DNA of 64,000 nt from Chloroflexota bacterium (GTDB taxonomy: Bacteria > Chloroflexota > UBA11872 > VXOZ01), in NCBI GenBank assembly GCA_964291655.2, contig OZ219802.1:544001-608000 (forward strand). The letters run 5' to 3'. This document shows, piece by piece, positions 60,460 through 64,000 of the stretch (the first letter of the stretch is position 1; every line of letters starts with the position of its first letter). The notes under the pieces were generated by a model. The model searched no databases. It was not told where the DNA came from and saw nothing but the letters and a program-made list of their open reading frames with translations. Made by a program: the position numbers and the translations under genes.

Positions 60460-61567
60460 CTAGGTTTTTCCTCGCGCTCCCTGCCGGCGATTCTCAGCTT
60501 GCTGCCTGAGAAAGGCCTCAACGAAGTCATCGATAGCGCCATCCATCACAGCGCGCGTATTCCCGGTTTCAACTCCGGTGCGGAGGTCTTTGACCATGGT
60601 GTAGGGATGCAACACATACGAACGAATTTGGTTGCCCCATTCAGCGCTGGTATGCTCACCCTTGAGAGCCGCCTGTTCGGCCTGCTGCTCTTGCAGCTTC
60701 CGCTCCAAAAGGCGTGCGCGCAGAATGCGCATGGCTGCCTCGCGGTTTTGCAGTTGCGAGCGTTCATTTTGGCACGAGACGACAATGCCGCTGGGCGCAT
60801 GTGTAATGCGCACCGCCGAGTTGGTCTTGTTTACATGCTGCCCGCCCGCCCCACTGGCGCGAAACGTATCGAGACGCACGTCGTCGGGGTTGATCTCAAC
60901 CGTGACGTCATCATCGATCACGGGAAGCGCCTCTACGAGTGCGAAAGACGTGTGCCGGCGGTGGTTGGCATCAAACGGCGACAGTCGCACAAGACGGTGC
61001 ACGCCGTGCTCGGACTTAAGCCGGCCGTAGGCAAATGGCCCGCTCACCTGCAACGTCACGCTCTTGATGCCGGCCTCTTCACCGGGGGTGCTATCCAAAA
61101 TCTCCGGCCTGTGCTCGTGCGTCTCCGCCCAGCGGATGTACATGCGGAGGAGCATCTCGACCCAGTCCTGCGAATCAGTTCCGCCTGCGCCCGCATGCAA
61201 GGAAAGGAGCGCGTCACGCTCATCGTACGTGCCTTGAAAGAGCGTCTGTATCTCGCGCTTCTCGCCATCGGCTTCCAGCCGGCCCACCTCGGAGTCAAGC
61301 TCTGTTTCGAGCGCTGGATCGTCGAGCGCGGCAAACTCCTGCAACGCCTCGACTTCCGCGAAGAACCCATTCCAATCATCCGCCATGCGGCGCACCGCCG
61401 CGAGCCGCTGCATCACGCGCTGTGCGTCTACCGGTGTATTCCATAGTCCCGGGTCAAGCGATTGTTCCTCCAGTTCGGCAATCTCTACGTCCCACGCCGC
61501 CAGGTCAAAGGCGCCTCCGAAGTTCGTCTGCACGAGCGCTTAGTGCGGCTATTCTCTCATTGATCAT
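60460..61567 (-). CDS. prfB: Peptide chain release factor 2 with programmed +1 frameshift
   Basis: GGQ and SPF motifs; 20-codon first frame from ATG 61567 ends GGAGG-CGC-CTT-TGA-C (slip site 61510-61504). Confidence 0.96.
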
Positions 61568-62000
61568 GTTCTTCGCTCTCTCGAGGTTTTCCTCACGGTG
61601 CTAAGACAGAGTTTTCACGTTATGTCGAGATACAATATTGGGAGCCACAACCGTTTATTCGCTCTCACACCTCAACGGAGTAGAACCGTGAGCCCCTGCA
61701 CTGCCTGCAACCAAGGTTGCCGAGTCGCGCGAAGTCGTTGTAGCTTGCCTAGTGCCCGTTGATTAAATCACAGGCACTAGAGTCGGTCAAACACTTCACA
61801 GACTCTGGCGCTGCAAAGATTGGCGCAAGCAAGTGACAACATACTGAGGCAGACCAAATTCAGGCTCTCGACCTCGTGTAACCTGCGGTGGCAAATGTCA
61901 TCACCTTACGGTATGCTGATATCTACCGTGCGGCCGGCCTCGCCGCACGCCTACAATAGGCTTGAGCAAGAACCCACACCTGCTGCTGAGGAAAGCGCAC

Positions 62001-62309
62001 ATGAAACAGGTGCTCCACATTATCGACGACAAGGACAACACCGCAATCGCACTGGCTGACCTTACCCCAGGCGCCAAGGTCTCTTTCACAGGACCGGACG
62101 GCGCGCAGGAAGTCACGATTCTCGACGACATTCCCTTCGGTCACAAGGTTGCCGTGAAAGCCATCGGCAATGGCGAACACGTCATCAAATACGGCGAATC
62201 GATTGGGGCTGCCACGCAGGATATTGCGCCTGGCAATCACGTGCACACGCAGAACTTAGAGAGCCTGCGCGGGCGGGGTGACCTCGTCGGCGCCGACCAA
62301 TCCTCCTAG
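62001..62309 (+). CDS. UxaA/GarD-type N-terminal SAF-domain protein
   Basis: DNTAIAL, IPFGHKVA, VIKYGESIG and GNHVHTQN motifs. Confidence 0.88.
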   Translation: MKQVLHIIDDKDNTAIALADLTPGAKVSFTGPDGAQEVTILDDIPFGHKVAVKAIGNGEHVIKYGESIGAATQDIAPGNHVHTQNLESLRGRGDLVGADQSS

Positions 62310-62328
62310 CCCTGCCGCTGCCACTGTC

Positions 62329-63030
62329 ATGCCTGCACAGAAGTCCGCAAGCCCGCCAAAGCGCAAGCGAGGCAGGGAATCAAAGCGCGCTCTCCGCGAG
62401 CGTCTAGGACAGATCGTCTCTTGCCTCCGCGCAACCTATCCTGAAGCCGAATGCGCTCTTGAATATCGTAGCGTGTGGGAACTATTGGTTGCCACCATCC
62501 TCTCCGCGCAGTGCACGGACAAGCGCGTAAACATGGTCACTCCGGCCCTCTTTGAGCGCTTTCCAACAGTGGAAGCCTTTGCAGCGGCGCCGCGTGAAGA
62601 GCTGGAAACAGCCATCAGGACAACCGGCTTCTTTCGCAATAAAGCCAAGAATATTCAGGGCGCCGCGCACGTGCTGCTGGAGAGATTCGGGGGCGCTGTG
62701 CCTAACACGATGGCGGAACTCCTCGAGTTGCCCGGCGTAGCGCGGAAGACCGCCAATGTTGTGCTCGGCGTGGCTTTTCAGGTTGCCGACGGGGTTGTAG
62801 TCGACACCCACGTTTCGCGCCTCTCTCAGCGCCTGCGGCTGACCCGCGAAAAAGAGCCCACCAAGATCGAGCGAGATCTCATGCAGATTGTGCCTCAGTC
62901 TGATTGGATAGACATTGGACACCTGCTAATTCACCACGGCCGGGCGCTCTGCACCGCTCGCAAGCCTGCCTGTGGCGAATGCCCGTTACAGGACCTTTGC
63001 CCAAGCGCGGCACTCTATCTCAACGGTTAG
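62329..63030 (+). CDS. nth: Endonuclease III
   Basis: LSAQCTD, LPGVARKTANVV, VDTHV and the C-x6-C-x2-C-x5-C Fe-S motif; start approximate. Confidence 0.95.
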   Translation: MPAQKSASPPKRKRGRESKRALRERLGQIVSCLRATYPEAECALEYRSVWELLVATILSAQCTDKRVNMVTPALFERFPTVEAFAAAPREELETAIRTTGFFRNKAKNIQGAAHVLLERFGGAVPNTMAELLELPGVARKTANVVLGVAFQVADGVVVDTHVSRLSQRLRLTREKEPTKIERDLMQIVPQSDWIDIGHLLIHHGRALCTARKPACGECPLQDLCPSAALYLNG

Positions 63031-63132
63031 ATCGGATCCGGCAGTCCTCTACCCCACATTTGCAGGCCAGGCGGAATCTATAGCATCTAGGCACACACAA
63101 TAATTAGGTGCCAGTTTTAGATGCTTGTCCAG

Positions 63133-63465
63133 CTACTCTTTCTCCACACAACAGGGACAACCTTCGCGCAATCCATCGAAAGTGTAAATGCCCGTGTTGT
63201 GGCCGTCTTCCCAGTGCATCCGGACCGCATAGCTCCCCACTTGCTCAATTGACTCCAGGAACGTCTGAGCTGCCGTCAGAATTATGCCGGCATGCATCGA
63301 CCCGGGAATGTCCATTTCACCGGCGCAAAGAGCACATGGACACGAGCGGCGCAAGTCCTCCCAATCGTAGCGGCTAATGTGCCCATCTCGCCACTCGACC
63401 CTGAGTTCGCGGCTGTCCTCGCCGCGTGATATCATCGCGGGCGTTCGTGCCCGAATGTCCCTCAT
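63133..63465 (-). CDS. DUF971 / gamma-butyrobetaine-hydroxylase N-terminal-like domain protein
   Basis: WRDGH, LRRSCPCALC, VGSYA and WEDGHNTGIY motifs. Confidence 0.88.
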   Translation of the reverse strand: MRDIRARTPAMISRGEDSRELRVEWRDGHISRYDWEDLRRSCPCALCAGEMDIPGSMHAGIILTAAQTFLESIEQVGSYAVRMHWEDGHNTGIYTFDGLREGCPCCVEKE

Positions 63466-63611
63466 ATCTTGCTCCGCATGTGAATTCTTCCGTTACTACG
63501 TGTTACGTCCTGCGCTGAATAGTCCGAAAGGCACCTGGCCCCGGACTGCCACGTATGGATTGGCACGGCGCTTTGAGAAGTCAACCGCACCCAATCGCGC
63601 TCTCGCCAGGC

Positions 63612-63648
63612 AATCAAGAACGCACCCCGACGTTGTCGGGGTGCGTTC
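63612..63648 (-). terminator. Strong hairpin, probable terminator of the upstream small-ORF/RNA transcript
   Basis: GAACGCACCCCGAC-3 nt-GTCGGGGTGCGTTC perfect 14-bp stem, followed by TTGATT on the minus strand. Confidence 0.7.
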
Positions 63649-63657
63649 ACTTCCATT

Positions 63658-63832
63658 GCTGGGTCGGGCAGTAATTCCGCCTATTCATCGCCCTAACCTC
63701 GGGCACTGGCTCGAGGTTGGCTCGCTCACATCAGCGCGTCGCCGAAACTACCCGTCAAGAGGCGGAACCCAACGCCCTGTTTTGTGGCCCCCCACCCGCA
63801 TCAGTCGTAGTTTTCAATCCCGCGGATGGAGG
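63658..63832 (-). ncRNA. Candidate structured RNA with pseudoknot potential; family not recognised
   Basis: GTTGGGT/ACCCAGC, TCCGCCT/AGGCGGA and CGGGTAGT/ACTGCCCG pairings in crossed order, plus AACCTCG/CGAGGTT and CCTCCATCCGC/GCGGGTGGGGG stems. Confidence 0.5.
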
Positions 63833-63833
63833 G

Positions 63834-63902
63834 TTACCTGTCCACTTGCCAAACACAATACAGCACTCTCGGATTATCGAGCGGCAAGCGCATTCCTTTC
63901 AT
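63834..63902 (-). CDS. Putative 22-aa small protein MKGMRLPLDNPRVLYCVWQVDR
   Basis: Very strong RBS AAAGGAGGGAGGTGA 3 nt before ATG; TAA stop; promoter directly upstream. Confidence 0.6.
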   Translation of the reverse strand: MKGMRLPLDNPRVLYCVWQVDR

Positions 63903-63956
63903 GGCTCACCTCCCTCCTTTCGTGCAGTACCGAGGGTTCACACCCTCCTTAGTTCA

Positions 63957-63985
63957 AATTAACCACAATTCATAGAATTTGTCAA
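63957..63985 (-). promoter_or_regulatory. Putative sigma70-type promoter
   Basis: Perfect -35 TTGACA, 17-nt spacer ending TGG, -10-like TTAATT. Confidence 0.6.
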
Positions 63986-64000
63986 GCGTTCGGAACCGAT

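What the first reader, a model, noticed from the sequence alone, without database searches (positions are those of the whole stretch)
63612..63985. Self-contained small-protein plus structured-RNA transcription unit
Seen on the minus strand, in order: perfect -35 with 17-nt spacer, a GNRA-capped hairpin (GAGGGT-GTGA-ACCCTC), an exceptionally strong RBS, a 22-aa ORF (MKGMRLPLDNPRVLYCVWQVDR), ~180 nt of densely paired sequence and a 14-bp terminator-like hairpin, giving a ~335-nt transcript. I recognise neither the peptide nor the RNA. Inference: a dual-function sRNA, a peptide-plus-RNA module, or a Cys/Trp-sensing leader controlling the downstream DUF971 gene. This is the best candidate for an undescribed system in the window.
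Basis: partly seen in the sequence, partly recalled or inferred. Interest (0 to 1): 0.75.

Follow-up and report, generated by a model that had tools for sequence, protein, structure and literature searches.

The report
Chloroflexota micro-ORF plus structured RNA gene
This is a real, self-contained small gene that carries a tiny, strongly conserved protein-coding frame and a folded RNA domain; it belongs to a previously unannotated family spread through the phylum Chloroflexota, and its function is still unknown.

Summary
On the minus strand at 63985-63611 lie a conserved -35/extended -10 promoter, a 5' hairpin, a strong Shine-Dalgarno site, a 22-aa ORF, a 13-bp hairpin starting 1 nt after the stop, a covarying three-way junction and a terminator hairpin. 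Rfam, Pfam and NCBIfam do not match it.

The unit is in 17 of 17 genomes of the genus. The ORF belongs to a family found across Chloroflexota (83 of 401 sampled genomes; 110 of 120 hits of a pattern scan of all prokaryote species). Members have ORFs of 13-49 aa (mode 14) with a variable N-terminus and an invariant core, [G/C]-x-W-Q-[V/I]-D, usually one codon before the stop. Synonymous codons vary freely, so the frame is selected as protein.

The hairpin, junction domain and terminator keep their places across the phylum, with compensatory changes. Downstream genes differ and are often convergent. It is therefore a free-standing gene and not, in general, a leader of DUF971.

Best reading: a peptide-plus-RNA (dual-function) small RNA. 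The ribosome is likely forced into the hairpin while WQVD is made. Function is unproven.

The parts
63957..63985 (-). Promoter: -35 TTGACA (63985-63980), 17-nt spacer ending in TG (63965-63964), -10 TTAATT (63962-63957). The start of transcription is inferred near 63950.
   Evidence: Sequence read. TTGAC is invariant in 17 of 17 genus members and TG is kept in most. The consensus scan did not list it because the -10 is weak. The start site is inferred, not mapped.
63932..63947 (-). 5' hairpin (GAGGGU / GUGA / ACCCUC). Its 3' arm, CCCUC, is complementary to the SD.
   Evidence: 100% of cells pair in 17 sequences. The closing pair changes C-G to U-A or A-U in 3 sequences (helix 1). The loop sequence is not conserved.
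63906..63917 (-). Shine-Dalgarno GGAGGGAGGUGA, 3 nt before the AUG. In the genus consensus fold it pairs with ORF codons 4-8.
   Evidence: nearly invariant. The helix at alignment columns 73-83 with 98-108 is 98.2% paired, with synonymous ORF changes that keep the pairing (helix 4).
63834..63902 (-). Micro-ORF, 22 aa plus TAA: MKGMRLPLDNPRVLYCVWQVDR. The family core is C-V-W-Q-V-D (codons 16-21).
   Evidence: Residues 5-21 are invariant in 17 genus members except C/G16. Variable columns by codon position are 3, 0 and 9 of 17. The family-wide core is kept with free synonymous codon use.
63788..63833 (-). Hairpin P1, 13 bp (CCCUCCAUCCGCG ... UGCGGGUGGGGGG) with a variable 20-nt loop. It starts 1 nt after the stop codon, 9 nt after the first base of the Asp codon.
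   Evidence: 99.1% paired, with 2 pairs showing compensatory changes (helix 5). A GC-rich hairpin sits at the same place in members across the phylum.
63666..63777 (-). Three-way-junction domain: an outer stem (GGGC/GCCC), an inner closing stem (GGUUCCGC/GCGGAAUU) and two internal hairpins.
   Evidence: helices 6-10: 12 of 26 pairs show compensatory changes and 85-99% of cells pair.
63649..63665 (-). Conserved, mostly unpaired linker (GACCCAGCAAUGGAAGU) between the junction and the terminator.
   Evidence: Invariant or nearly invariant columns CCCGACCC and AAUGG. Its role is unknown. That it could be a seed or binding site is inference only.
63611..63648 (-). Terminator-like hairpin (13-14 bp, loop CAACG) followed by UUGAUUG.
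   Evidence: 100% paired, 5 of 12 pairs with compensatory changes (helix 11). The U-tract is weak here and the hairpin was not listed. Relatives in other families have strong U-tracts.
63133..63465 (-). Downstream neighbour: a DUF971 / GBBH-like_N protein (110 aa). It is not part of the family-wide unit.
   Evidence: Pfam PF06155, E 1.1e-23. It follows the unit in 17 of 17 genus genomes, with a spacer of about 20 to 190 nt. It is absent from this position in other families.

Best explanation
The locus is an independently transcribed small gene of about 335 nt that is both an mRNA and a structured RNA.

It encodes a 22-aa member of a micropeptide family found through Chloroflexota. Family ORFs are 13-49 aa, most often 14. 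The N-terminus is variable. The core [G/C]-x-W-Q-[V/I]-D is invariant and usually lies one codon before the stop.

Its 3' two-thirds form a conserved RNA module: a GC-rich hairpin (P1) abutting the ORF end, a three-way-junction domain, a conserved linker and an intrinsic terminator.

Both halves are under selection, so I read it as a peptide-plus-RNA (dual-function) small RNA and not as a leader for DUF971.

How it most likely works (inferred):
1. Access to the very strong SD is limited by conserved helices. In this genus the SD pairs with ORF codons 4-8. In Dehalococcoidales the 5' end pairs with codons 2-4.
2. Once translation starts, the ribosome makes the peptide.
3. The base of P1 lies about 9-10 nt after the first base of the Asp codon. 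The ribosome must therefore begin to unwind P1 exactly while W-Q-V-D occupies the peptidyl-transferase centre and upper tunnel.
4. Translation of the micro-ORF and the folding or availability of the 3' domain are thus coupled.

Shown here: the unit is real and conserved, the frame is selected as protein, the RNA fold covaries, and the unit is free-standing.

Inferred: that the peptide is made, what it binds, what the junction domain binds, and the coupling itself.

My separate odds:
- Real conserved family: 0.95.
- ORF translated: 0.85.
- RNA domain has a function beyond stability: 0.7.
- The coupling mechanism as stated: 0.3.
For: Conservation and free-standing nature:
- The unit is found in 16 of 16 other genomes of the genus and in none of the 24 other-family genomes of the class by blastn (best E 0.12).
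- Peptide profile A2 hits 17 of 17 genus genomes at E of 5e-16 or better.
- A related 35-37-aa ORF ending ...NIRVLIGRWQVDRSRPAA has its own promoter, 5' hairpin, SD, 3' domain and strong terminator. It lies between a GntR-like gene and a convergent 2-hydroxyacid dehydrogenase in another family of the class.
- Of 10 downstream genes checked in other lineages, 6 are convergent and 4 are co-directional but unrelated.

Spread:
- Profile A3 hits 100 of 401 phylum genomes at E up to 0.05. Profile A4 hits 83 of 401 at E up to 0.01. Both tallies include the unpublished genomes G132 and G301.
- By eye, 25 of 25 hits inspected are real. In one search, of 40 weaker hits, 23 are clear, 3 doubtful and 14 not real.
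Of these, 110 are titled Chloroflexota.

Protein-level selection:
- In 162 vetted members the codons are: W TGG 162; Q CAG 98, CAA 64; V/I GTG 75, GTT 39, GTC 36, GTA 5, ATT 6, ATC 1; D GAC 123, GAT 39.
- All three stop codons are used (TGA 65, TAA 60, TAG 37).
- One codon lies between D and the stop in 123 of 162.
- 160 of 172 core matches have an in-frame start preceded by an SD-like stretch, and 10 of the 12 failures are real by eye.
- Variable columns by codon position are 3/0/9 of 17 in the genus and 6/4/12 of 14 in Dehalococcoidales.

RNA structure:
- Genus alignment: 97.6% of cells pair against 33-48% when partners are slid; 21 pairs and 47 cells show compensatory change against 3-6 pairs and 4-8 cells; 0 of 500 shuffles reach these values.
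- Dehalococcoidales alignment of 36 sequences: 92.2% against 39-46%; 23 pairs and 127 cells against 6-14 and 12-35; 0 of 500.
- A covariance model of P1 plus the junction, without the ORF, finds full-length matches directly after the ORF in 9 loci outside its training set. Four are strong (57-83 bits) and five weak (12-21 bits).
- A terminator-like hairpin lies 150-245 nt after the Trp codon in 35 of 47 members scanned.

No known family. Five exact peptides are absent from a collection of 15 billion proteins.

Presence in RNA libraries: contigs from four RNA runs cover parts of the unit. This shows presence only.
Against: - No experiment shows the peptide or maps the RNA ends. The RNA-library evidence is assembled contigs, which cannot give strand, ends or level and may contain DNA.
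- The family is patchy. In one search some large families have no hit: f12 0 of 27, f25 0 of 35, f15 0 of 18.
- The 3' domain of this genus is not recognised by the model built from Dehalococcoidales. Homology of the RNA half across the whole phylum therefore rests on equal position and architecture, not on sequence.
- Peptides of 14 aa are unusually short for stable trans-acting proteins.
- In 33 of 162 members the frame runs 5-7 codons past the Asp, into or through P1. The motif therefore need not be C-terminal.
- My hairpin-distance measure is noisy and bimodal, at 3-4 and 9-10 nt.
- The helix that sequesters the SD has only 1 compensatory pair out of 10.
Confidence: 0.45

Rival explanations
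1. Translation-gated riboregulator. The peptide has no role as a free molecule. The conserved C-terminal residues act inside the ribosome, as a nascent-chain pause or arrest at V-D-x that is reinforced by hairpin P1. The paused ribosome controls how the 3' domain folds or whether it is cleaved or bound. The unit would then be a free-standing sensor of translation status, or of a small molecule that binds in the exit tunnel.
For: - Conservation is confined to the last 6-11 residues, while the N-terminus varies in length and sequence.
- The commonest ORF is 14 aa (58 of 162). Such a chain would still lie inside the exit tunnel at termination (tunnel capacity is recalled knowledge).
- P1 keeps its register relative to the W-Q-V-D codons whether the stop lies before it or in its loop.
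- The motif ...V-D followed often by R or K resembles recalled drug-dependent arrest sites with Asp in the P site (ErmBL ...NVD-K, CmlA leader ...NAD-K, Cat86 leader ...KTD-K). These are recalled from memory and not checked in any call.
Against: - There is no consistent downstream gene to regulate.
- The residue after Asp and the stop codon are not conserved.
- No stalling data exist.
- A pause could simply be a by-product of a stable hairpin.
Confidence: 0.25
2. An ordinary small-protein gene. The micropeptide is the only functional product. The 5' hairpin, P1, the junction and the terminator only stabilise the short mRNA and tune its translation.
For: - There is strong protein-level selection on the frame.
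- The SD is strong and the unit has its own promoter and terminator.
- The sequence of the 3' domain diverges quickly between classes (no match in this genus).
Against: - A pure stabiliser would not need a three-way junction that holds its architecture and position across the phylum with compensatory changes.
- It would not need conserved unpaired stretches either. Examples are CCCGACCC..AAUGG in the genus and GAAAAC, AAGUGAG and the GGUGAUCACC hairpin in Dehalococcoidales.
Confidence: 0.17
3. In this genus the unit is a transcription attenuator or leader for the DUF971 gene. Translation of the micro-ORF decides whether the weak terminator at 63648-63618 is read through.
For: - DUF971 follows on the same strand in 17 of 17 genus genomes. 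In 3 of them the terminator is only about 20 nt from the DUF971 start.
- The U-tract is weak here.
Against: - The same unit stands alone, or before unrelated or convergent genes, elsewhere.
- There is one Trp codon and no run of regulatory codons.
- I found no conserved antiterminator alternative.
- DUF971 has its own SD, and the spacer is variable in length and unconserved.
Confidence: 0.08
4. A purely non-coding RNA. The apparent ORF is never translated and its conservation reflects RNA sequence or structure.
For: - Some codons are frozen at the nucleotide level within groups. In the genus GUGCUGUA and UGGCAAGUGGAC are frozen. In Dehalococcoidales the Leu-3 codon is CUU in 34 of 36.
- These stretches take part in conserved helices.
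Against: - Across 162 members every core residue is kept while its synonymous codons vary freely.
- Start, SD and in-frame stop are present in 160 of 172 matches by the script and in 170 of 172 by eye.
- Third codon positions vary most.
Confidence: 0.05

Closest known systems
Dual-function small RNAs that also encode a small protein (SgrS/SgrT, RNAIII/delta-haemolysin, Bacillus SR1/SR1P). Recalled, not looked up.
   Same: A free-standing transcript of a few hundred nt with its own promoter and terminator. It carries a short translated frame plus a structured RNA part, and both are conserved.
   Different: The known examples are restricted to a genus or family. Their RNA part is a proven base-pairing regulator and their ORFs are 26-43 aa or longer. 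Here the family spans a phylum, the ORF is typically 14 aa, no target or base-pairing seed is known, and no sequence or Rfam relation exists.
rnTrpL / peTrpL of Sinorhizobium: an attenuator-derived sRNA that carries a functional 14-aa leader peptide. Recalled.
   Same: A roughly 14-aa peptide on a small, terminator-ended RNA, where both the RNA and the peptide are thought to act. In this genus a gene follows the terminator.
   Different: rnTrpL is the trp attenuator, with three consecutive Trp codons and a fixed downstream trp operon. This family has one Trp codon, no fixed downstream gene and a much larger 3' domain.
Regulatory arrest or leader peptides (TnaC, SecM, ErmBL, the CmlA and Cat86 leaders). 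Recalled.
   Same: A short ORF with conserved residues only near its C-terminal end, a strong SD and an RNA hairpin directly downstream that a ribosome at the ORF end must open. The V-D-(R/K) ending is reminiscent of Asp-in-P-site arrest motifs.
   Different: All known examples control a specific downstream gene. That feature was tested here and not met for the family. Arrest itself is untested. The residue after Asp is not conserved.
Unannotated abundant sRNAs and a 23-aa sORF reported in Dehalococcoides mccartyi CBDB1 (PMC12961961; I read section 17 and passages).
   Same: Abundant monocistronic intergenic transcripts with sigma-70-type promoters in a Chloroflexota member, with no Rfam match. 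One small ORF had peptides detected by mass spectrometry.
   Different: I cannot tell whether sRNA2, sRNA3 or the 23-aa ORF is a member of this family. The paper does not describe a phylum-wide family or a WQVD peptide in the text I read.

Membership tests
Any Rfam 15 family | Covariance-model match at or near the family's gathering score | tested here: not met
   Window 62000-64000: the best matches are 17 and 16.5 bits against gathering scores of 85 and 114 (E 2.9 and 3.7). In 16 diverse family loci only an unrelated tRNA matched at E up to 1.
Pfam / NCBIfam small-protein families | Profile match of the peptide | tested here: not met
   0 families at E up to 10 for the 22-aa peptide in NCBIfam and Pfam.
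Classical amino-acid attenuator (trpL/hisL type) | Run of codons for the regulating amino acid in the leader peptide | tested here: not met
   There is one Trp codon and no run. Conservation is of a specific heptapeptide.
Classical amino-acid attenuator (trpL/hisL type) | Constant downstream biosynthetic operon | tested here: not met
   Of 10 downstream genes, 6 are convergent and 4 are unrelated co-directional genes. Only within the genus is DUF971 constant.
Ribosome-arrest / regulatory leader peptides | Conserved residues confined to the C-terminal, tunnel-resident part of a short ORF | tested here: met
   The N-terminus is variable and the core [G/C]xWQ[V/I]D is invariant, lying 0-1 codon before the stop in 125 of 162 members.
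Ribosome-arrest / regulatory leader peptides | Demonstrated translational arrest | not testable with these tools
   This needs toeprinting or ribosome profiling.
Ribosome-arrest / regulatory leader peptides | A downstream gene whose expression the arrest controls | tested here: not met
   Members end in strong terminators and often face convergent genes.
Dual-function (coding) small RNAs | Independent short transcript with its own promoter and terminator | tested here: inconclusive
   Promoter-like and terminator elements are conserved in sequence. Contigs from RNA libraries cover the unit. The transcript ends are not mapped.
Dual-function (coding) small RNAs | Short ORF that is translated | tested here: inconclusive
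   The comparative coding signature is strong. There is no direct evidence of translation.
Dual-function (coding) small RNAs | RNA part with a regulatory function of its own | not testable with these tools
   Only conservation and covariation of the 3' domain are shown.
tmRNA | tRNA-like ends, and a tag frame without SD or start codon | tested here: not met
   The genome's tmRNA lies elsewhere (G000:C2:2470300-2470673, 174 bits). This unit has an SD and an AUG.
6S RNA | Rod-like fold with a large central bubble, with the 5' and 3' ends paired | tested here: not met
   The consensus folds show a hairpin plus a three-way junction plus a terminator. RF00013 finds nothing in G000, but that model found only 5 of 14 control genomes.

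The most novel reading that the evidence does not exclude
The unit is a free-standing 'ribosome-gated' RNA. The WQVD nascent chain, together with hairpin P1, stalls or slows the ribosome at the end of a 14-22-aa frame. The stall may depend on a small molecule or on translation stress. The stalled ribosome then switches the fold, cleavage or partner binding of the three-way-junction domain. Arrest-peptide logic would thus drive a trans-acting RNA instead of a downstream gene. Such an arrangement has not been described, as far as my searches and my recall go.
Probability: 0.22. Interest if true: 0.9.

Novelty: new variant of a known kind. Interest (0 to 1): 0.72.

Why it matters
Chloroflexota are abundant in soils, sediments, sponges and aquifers that respire organohalides, yet almost nothing is known of their small RNAs or small proteins. 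Here a 14-37-aa frame and its RNA scaffold are conserved across several classes: Dehalococcoidia, Chloroflexia including Thermomicrobiales, Ktedonobacteria, and the sponge-associated lineage of this window. Gene callers and family libraries miss it completely.

If both halves act, it would be the most widely distributed coding small RNA known. If the peptide works only inside the ribosome, it would show that arrest-type peptides can control an RNA instead of a gene.

Either way it gives a concrete, easily mutated target (start codon, W, D, P1, junction) in cultivable relatives. It is also a ready covariance and peptide signature for annotating these genomes.

Tried and rejected
Ideas considered and rejected:
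- Selenocysteine. Two weak profile hits (L107, L125) had TGA at the Gly/Cys position. Reading the DNA showed no SD, start, hairpin or terminator. They are chance matches and I dropped the idea.
- tmRNA and 6S readings: rejected (folds).
- Type I toxin: rejected because the peptide is not hydrophobic (from the sequence).
- RiPP or cofactor precursor: one lineage has a radical-SAM gene downstream (L070). No modifying enzyme is a constant neighbour, so I rejected it as the general reading.
- Neighbour clustering around 115 loci of the pattern scan showed only local synteny in Dehalococcoidales: an SDR-like gene upstream in 27 loci and a 237-aa gene downstream in 26. It gave no functional lead.

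RNA libraries:
- No contig joined the unit to DUF971, and parts of the stretch had no cover.
- Contig depths were 1237 for a 191-nt contig over 63748-63908 and 5.15 for a DUF971 contig in run X23, and 508 for an adapter-flanked 85-nt insert at 63845-63929 in run X20. Such depths cannot rank genes, so I do not count them as expression evidence.
- X18 and X19 gave identical contigs and may be one data set.

Searches that gave nothing or could not run:
- The search for related loci could not use my peptide alignments.
- The search for homologous proteins needs at least 40 aa.
- The search of protein representatives, the protein-atlas search, structure prediction and complex prediction were not used, because the peptides are too short to be informative.
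- Literature: searches found nothing relevant. One search gave 20 papers containing 'WQVD', of which the 15 listed are unrelated by title. Searches gave two papers worth reading, and their relevant tables are supplementary and closed.
- The model R1 did not find the 3' domain of this genus or of the g10 genus.
Full report
WHAT IS THERE

Read on the minus strand, the stretch 63985-63611 contains the following.
- TTGACA at 63985-63980.
- A 17-nt spacer ending in TG-G, then TTAATT at 63962-63957.
- A 6-bp hairpin at 63947-63932.
- The SD GGAGGGAGGUGA at 63917-63906.
- An AUG at 63902 that opens a 22-codon frame, MKGMRLPLDNPRVLYCVWQVDR, with stop TAA at 63836-63834.
- A 13-bp hairpin, P1, at 63833-63788.
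- A multi-branched domain at 63777-63666.
- A conserved linker.
- A 13-14-bp hairpin at 63648-63618 followed by UUGAUUG.

The 349-nt RNA folds 4.5 standard deviations better than dinucleotide shuffles, and 0 of 100 shuffles fold as well. The simple promoter/terminator scan listed neither end of the unit, because the -10 departs from consensus and it did not list the hairpin and its tail as terminator-like. Rfam gave only noise (17 and 16.5 bits). The peptide matches no Pfam or NCBIfam family, and the gene 150 nt downstream is a DUF971/GBBH-like_N protein.

CONSERVATION IN THE GENUS

The window is G000:C2:544001-608000. blastn finds the unit once in each of the 16 other genomes of the genus, at 73-98% identity. 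It finds nothing credible in 24 genomes of other families of the class.

In the 17-sequence alignment, TTGAC, the SD, the ORF and both long hairpins are the best-kept parts. DUF971 follows in all 17. The spacer between the terminator and DUF971 ranges from about 20 to about 190 nt and is not conserved.

Residues 5-21 of the peptide are invariant except Cys/Gly16. The DNA under them carries TTG/TTA, CCG/CCA, CTC/CTT/CTG/TTG, GAT/GAC, AAT/AAC, AGA/AGG/CGA, TAT/TAC and GTT/GTC. The variable columns fall 3, 0 and 9 of 17 on codon positions 1, 2 and 3.

THE FOLD IN THE GENUS

RNAalifold and a pair count with controls support these helices:
- the 5' hairpin;
- a helix pairing the SD with ORF codons 4-8;
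- P1;
- a three-way junction (outer stem, inner closing stem, two hairpins);
- the terminator.

97.6% of 1292 cells pair, against 33-48% when the 3' partners are slid by 1-3 columns. 21 pairs and 47 cells carry changes on both sides, against 3-6 pairs and 4-8 cells in the slid controls. None of 500 column shuffles reaches these values. The tool warns that related sequences can beat shuffles without any structure, so the slid controls are the stronger comparison.

THE FAMILY BEYOND THE GENUS

A profile of the genus peptides picked up weak but recurrent hits in 21 of 24 genomes of another genus of the class. Read out, these are a 35-37-aa frame, M-R-D-V-A-L-A-Y-R-R-R-R-Q-x-G-A-R-R-L-N-I-R-V-L-I-G-R-W-Q-V-D-R-S-R-P-A-A. 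It has its own TTGAC promoter, a 5' hairpin, an SD, a hairpin whose loop holds the stop codon, a structured region of about 150 nt and a strong terminator. It lies after a GntR-like gene and before a convergent 2-hydroxyacid dehydrogenase, with no DUF971.

A joint profile then hit 100 of 401 genomes sampled across the phylum at E up to 0.05 (this tally includes the unpublished genomes G132 and G301, whose sequences I did not read). I read 65 of these hits.
- All 25 hits read (20 of the stronger phylum-wide hits and 5 from another genus of the class) show the motif in a short frame.
- Of 40 weaker hits, 23 are clear members, 3 are doubtful and 14 are not members.

A broader 14-column profile hit 83 of 401 genomes of at least 90% completeness at E up to 0.01. 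The distribution is patchy. Families f1, f6 and f4 scored 12/12, 25/28 and 4/8. Families f12, f25, f15 and f16 scored 0/27, 0/35, 0/18 and 1/26.

A degenerate pattern for L-x-G-V-W-Q-V-D-x-stop was scanned over one genome of each of 185,579 species.
- 110 are titled Chloroflexota: Dehalococcoidia, Dehalococcoidales or 'Dehalococcoidaceae', Chloroflexia, Thermomicrobiales, Ktedonobacterales, or simply Chloroflexi/Chloroflexota. None is titled Anaerolineae.
- Of the 10 others, 9 lack the SD and short-ORF context.
- One (L226) is a 3.3-kb contig binned to an acidobacterium that carries a complete unit. It is probably mis-binned.

I infer from these titles that the window's phylum is Chloroflexota. 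Two loci of that scan (L156, L185) carry the genus-type 22-aa frame.

ANATOMY OF THE FAMILY

In 162 vetted non-identical members (one of them, L243, is a false positive):
- The frame is 13-49 aa, and 14 aa in 58 members.
- The stop follows the Asp by one codon in 123, directly in 2, and by 5-7 codons in 33.
- All three stop codons are used.

The Dehalococcoidales form is M-[K/R]-L-H-x-L-[F/Y/L/W]-G-V-W-Q-V-D-x.

The core is kept while codons vary:
- Trp TGG 162.
- Gln CAG 98, CAA 64.
- Val/Ile GTG 75, GTT 39, GTC 36, GTA 5, ATT 6, ATC 1.
- Asp GAC 123, GAT 39.
- Gly GGA 94, GGG 42, GGT 7, GGC 1; Cys 17; His 1.

160 of 172 core matches have an in-frame start behind an SD-like stretch by script, and 10 of the 12 failures are real by eye. 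This pattern is what selection on a protein gives and is hard to obtain from RNA constraints alone.

Some codons are nevertheless frozen within groups, and they lie in conserved helices. In Dehalococcoidales the 5' end (GAAGCU) pairs with codons 2-4 (AGCUUC), with 96% of cells paired.

THE RNA HALF ACROSS THE PHYLUM

In members from many families a GC-rich hairpin begins within about 10 nt of the Asp codon. After it comes a branched domain closed by a long-range helix, and then a terminator. A terminator-like hairpin lies 150-245 nt after the Trp codon in 35 of 47 members scanned.

For 36 Dehalococcoidales sequences the fold comprises P1, a closing helix P2, hairpins P3 and P4, and the terminator. 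It pairs in 92.2% of cells against 39-46% slid. 23 pairs and 127 cells carry double changes, against 6-14 pairs and 12-35 cells, and 0 of 500 shuffles reach this.

A covariance model of P1 plus the junction alone, with the ORF excluded, found full-length matches immediately after the ORF on the right strand in 9 loci outside its training set. Four scored 57-83 bits and five scored 12-21 bits. It found 3 off-target weak matches. It found nothing in the window's genus or in the g10 genus.

So homology of the RNA half is shown within and near Dehalococcoidia. For the window's genus it rests on equal position and equal architecture.

NOT A LEADER IN GENERAL

Of 10 downstream genes identified by Pfam in other lineages:
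- 6 are convergent: 2-Hacid_dh, ADP_ribosyl_GH, LiaF-like, Glyco_hydro_130, G_glu_transpept, HpcH_HpaI.
- 4 are co-directional but unrelated: FAD_binding_2, a radical-SAM protein, and two Pyr_redox_2 proteins.

Several genomes carry 2-3 copies.

EXPRESSION

Runs holding the stretch include ones labelled sponge metagenome. Contigs from four RNA libraries cover parts of the unit at 85-99% identity. These include a 251-nt contig at 63638-63888, seen in two runs that may be one data set. They also include a 191-nt contig at 63748-63908 and an adapter-flanked 85-nt insert at 63845-63929. These are assembled contigs. They show presence in RNA libraries only, not strand, ends or level.

KNOWN OR NEW

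- None of five exact peptides is in a collection of about 15 billion predicted proteins.
- Full-text searches for the motif, and for Chloroflexi/Chloroflexota with small RNA, leader peptide or small ORF, found no description.
- A 2026 paper on Dehalococcoides mccartyi CBDB1 (PMC12961961; I read section 17 and passages) reports three abundant intergenic sRNAs without Rfam matches and a 23-aa ORF with peptides detected. The sequences are only in the closed supplement, so overlap with this family cannot be excluded or shown.
- The 50-genome survey (PMC11109978; passages read) included a Dehalococcoides genome and counts 3 sORF and 10 sRNA candidates without describing them in the main text.

HOW IT MOST LIKELY WORKS

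Shown: a conserved, free-standing unit; a frame selected as protein; a covarying RNA domain; and helices that involve the translation start region.

Inferred:
1. The frame is translated from a very strong SD whose access is limited by structure.
2. With the Asp codon in the P site, the base of P1 lies at about +10 in this window. That is near where, from recalled ribosome-helicase work, a duplex must begin to open.
3. The ribosome therefore enters P1 exactly while W-Q-V-D is at the catalytic centre. At the stop codon it has opened roughly half of P1.
4. This couples translation to the fold of the 3' domain.

Whether the peptide then acts as a free molecule (my best reading, together with an active RNA domain) or only inside the ribosome (the boldest rival) cannot be decided here. 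The resemblance of ...V-D-(R/K) to Asp-in-P-site arrest peptides is recalled from memory and is a lead, not a test.

VERDICT

The 'peptide-plus-RNA module' reading is supported, and the 'leader of DUF971' reading is not supported as the general function. It is a new, phylum-wide variant of the coding-small-RNA kind, with unknown function. Interest 0.72.

Noticed in passing
window 61505-61567 and 60460-61533, minus strand: The release factor 2 gene (prfB) has the classical programmed +1 frameshift site. A 20-codon frame, MINERIAALSARADELRRRL, ends in CGGAGGCGC CTT TGA C, and the long frame continues in +1.
   Followed up: partly
G000 whole genome: Rfam 6S RNA (RF00013) finds nothing in this 97.6%-complete genome. 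The same search found only 5 of 14 control genomes, so this is weak. The tmRNA is at G000:C2:2470300-2470673.
   Followed up: no
L113 (G294:C153), about 100-160: One member has the core duplicated in tandem within the frame (...AWQVDQAFLGVWQVD-stop).
   Followed up: no
L105 (G407:C9); L109 and L111 (G369:C180, G418:C15): These members have a changed core. L105 has W replaced by L (YGVLQVD), a hairpin and a nearby terminator but no junction domain. L109 and L111 have G replaced by M and W by Y (YMVYQVD-stop), with SD and hairpin intact.
   Followed up: partly
L226 (3.3-kb contig titled Terracidiphilus sp. MAG): A complete unit (MRLLKLYGVWQVDI plus hairpin) sits on a short contig binned to an acidobacterium. 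It comes from a data set that also yielded Dehalococcoidia MAGs, so it is probably a binning error and not a transfer.
   Followed up: partly
G121, G143, G256, G378, G460: Some Chloroflexota genomes carry two or three copies of the micro-ORF unit on different contigs.
   Followed up: no
window 63845-63929: In a size-fractionated metatranscriptome run (X20), a contig holds an 85-nt insert with sequencing adapters on both sides. The insert runs from 3 nt after the 5' hairpin to the Gln/Val codons of the core. It could be a discrete processing product, but contigs cannot show that.
   Followed up: no
Dehalococcoidales loci L136-L212: There is local synteny around the unit: an SDR-like gene upstream on the same strand in 27 loci, and a 237-aa gene starting about 680 nt downstream in 26 loci. 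This leaves an unexplained, partly conserved stretch of about 400 nt after the terminator.
   Followed up: no
window 62278-63030 (+) and L001 2076-3429 (-): The neighbours of the unit in this genome are an endonuclease III-like ORF beyond DUF971 on the opposite strand, and TrkA/KtrA-like and TrkH/KtrB-like potassium-uptake genes upstream of the promoter. These are judged from the translations only.
   Followed up: no
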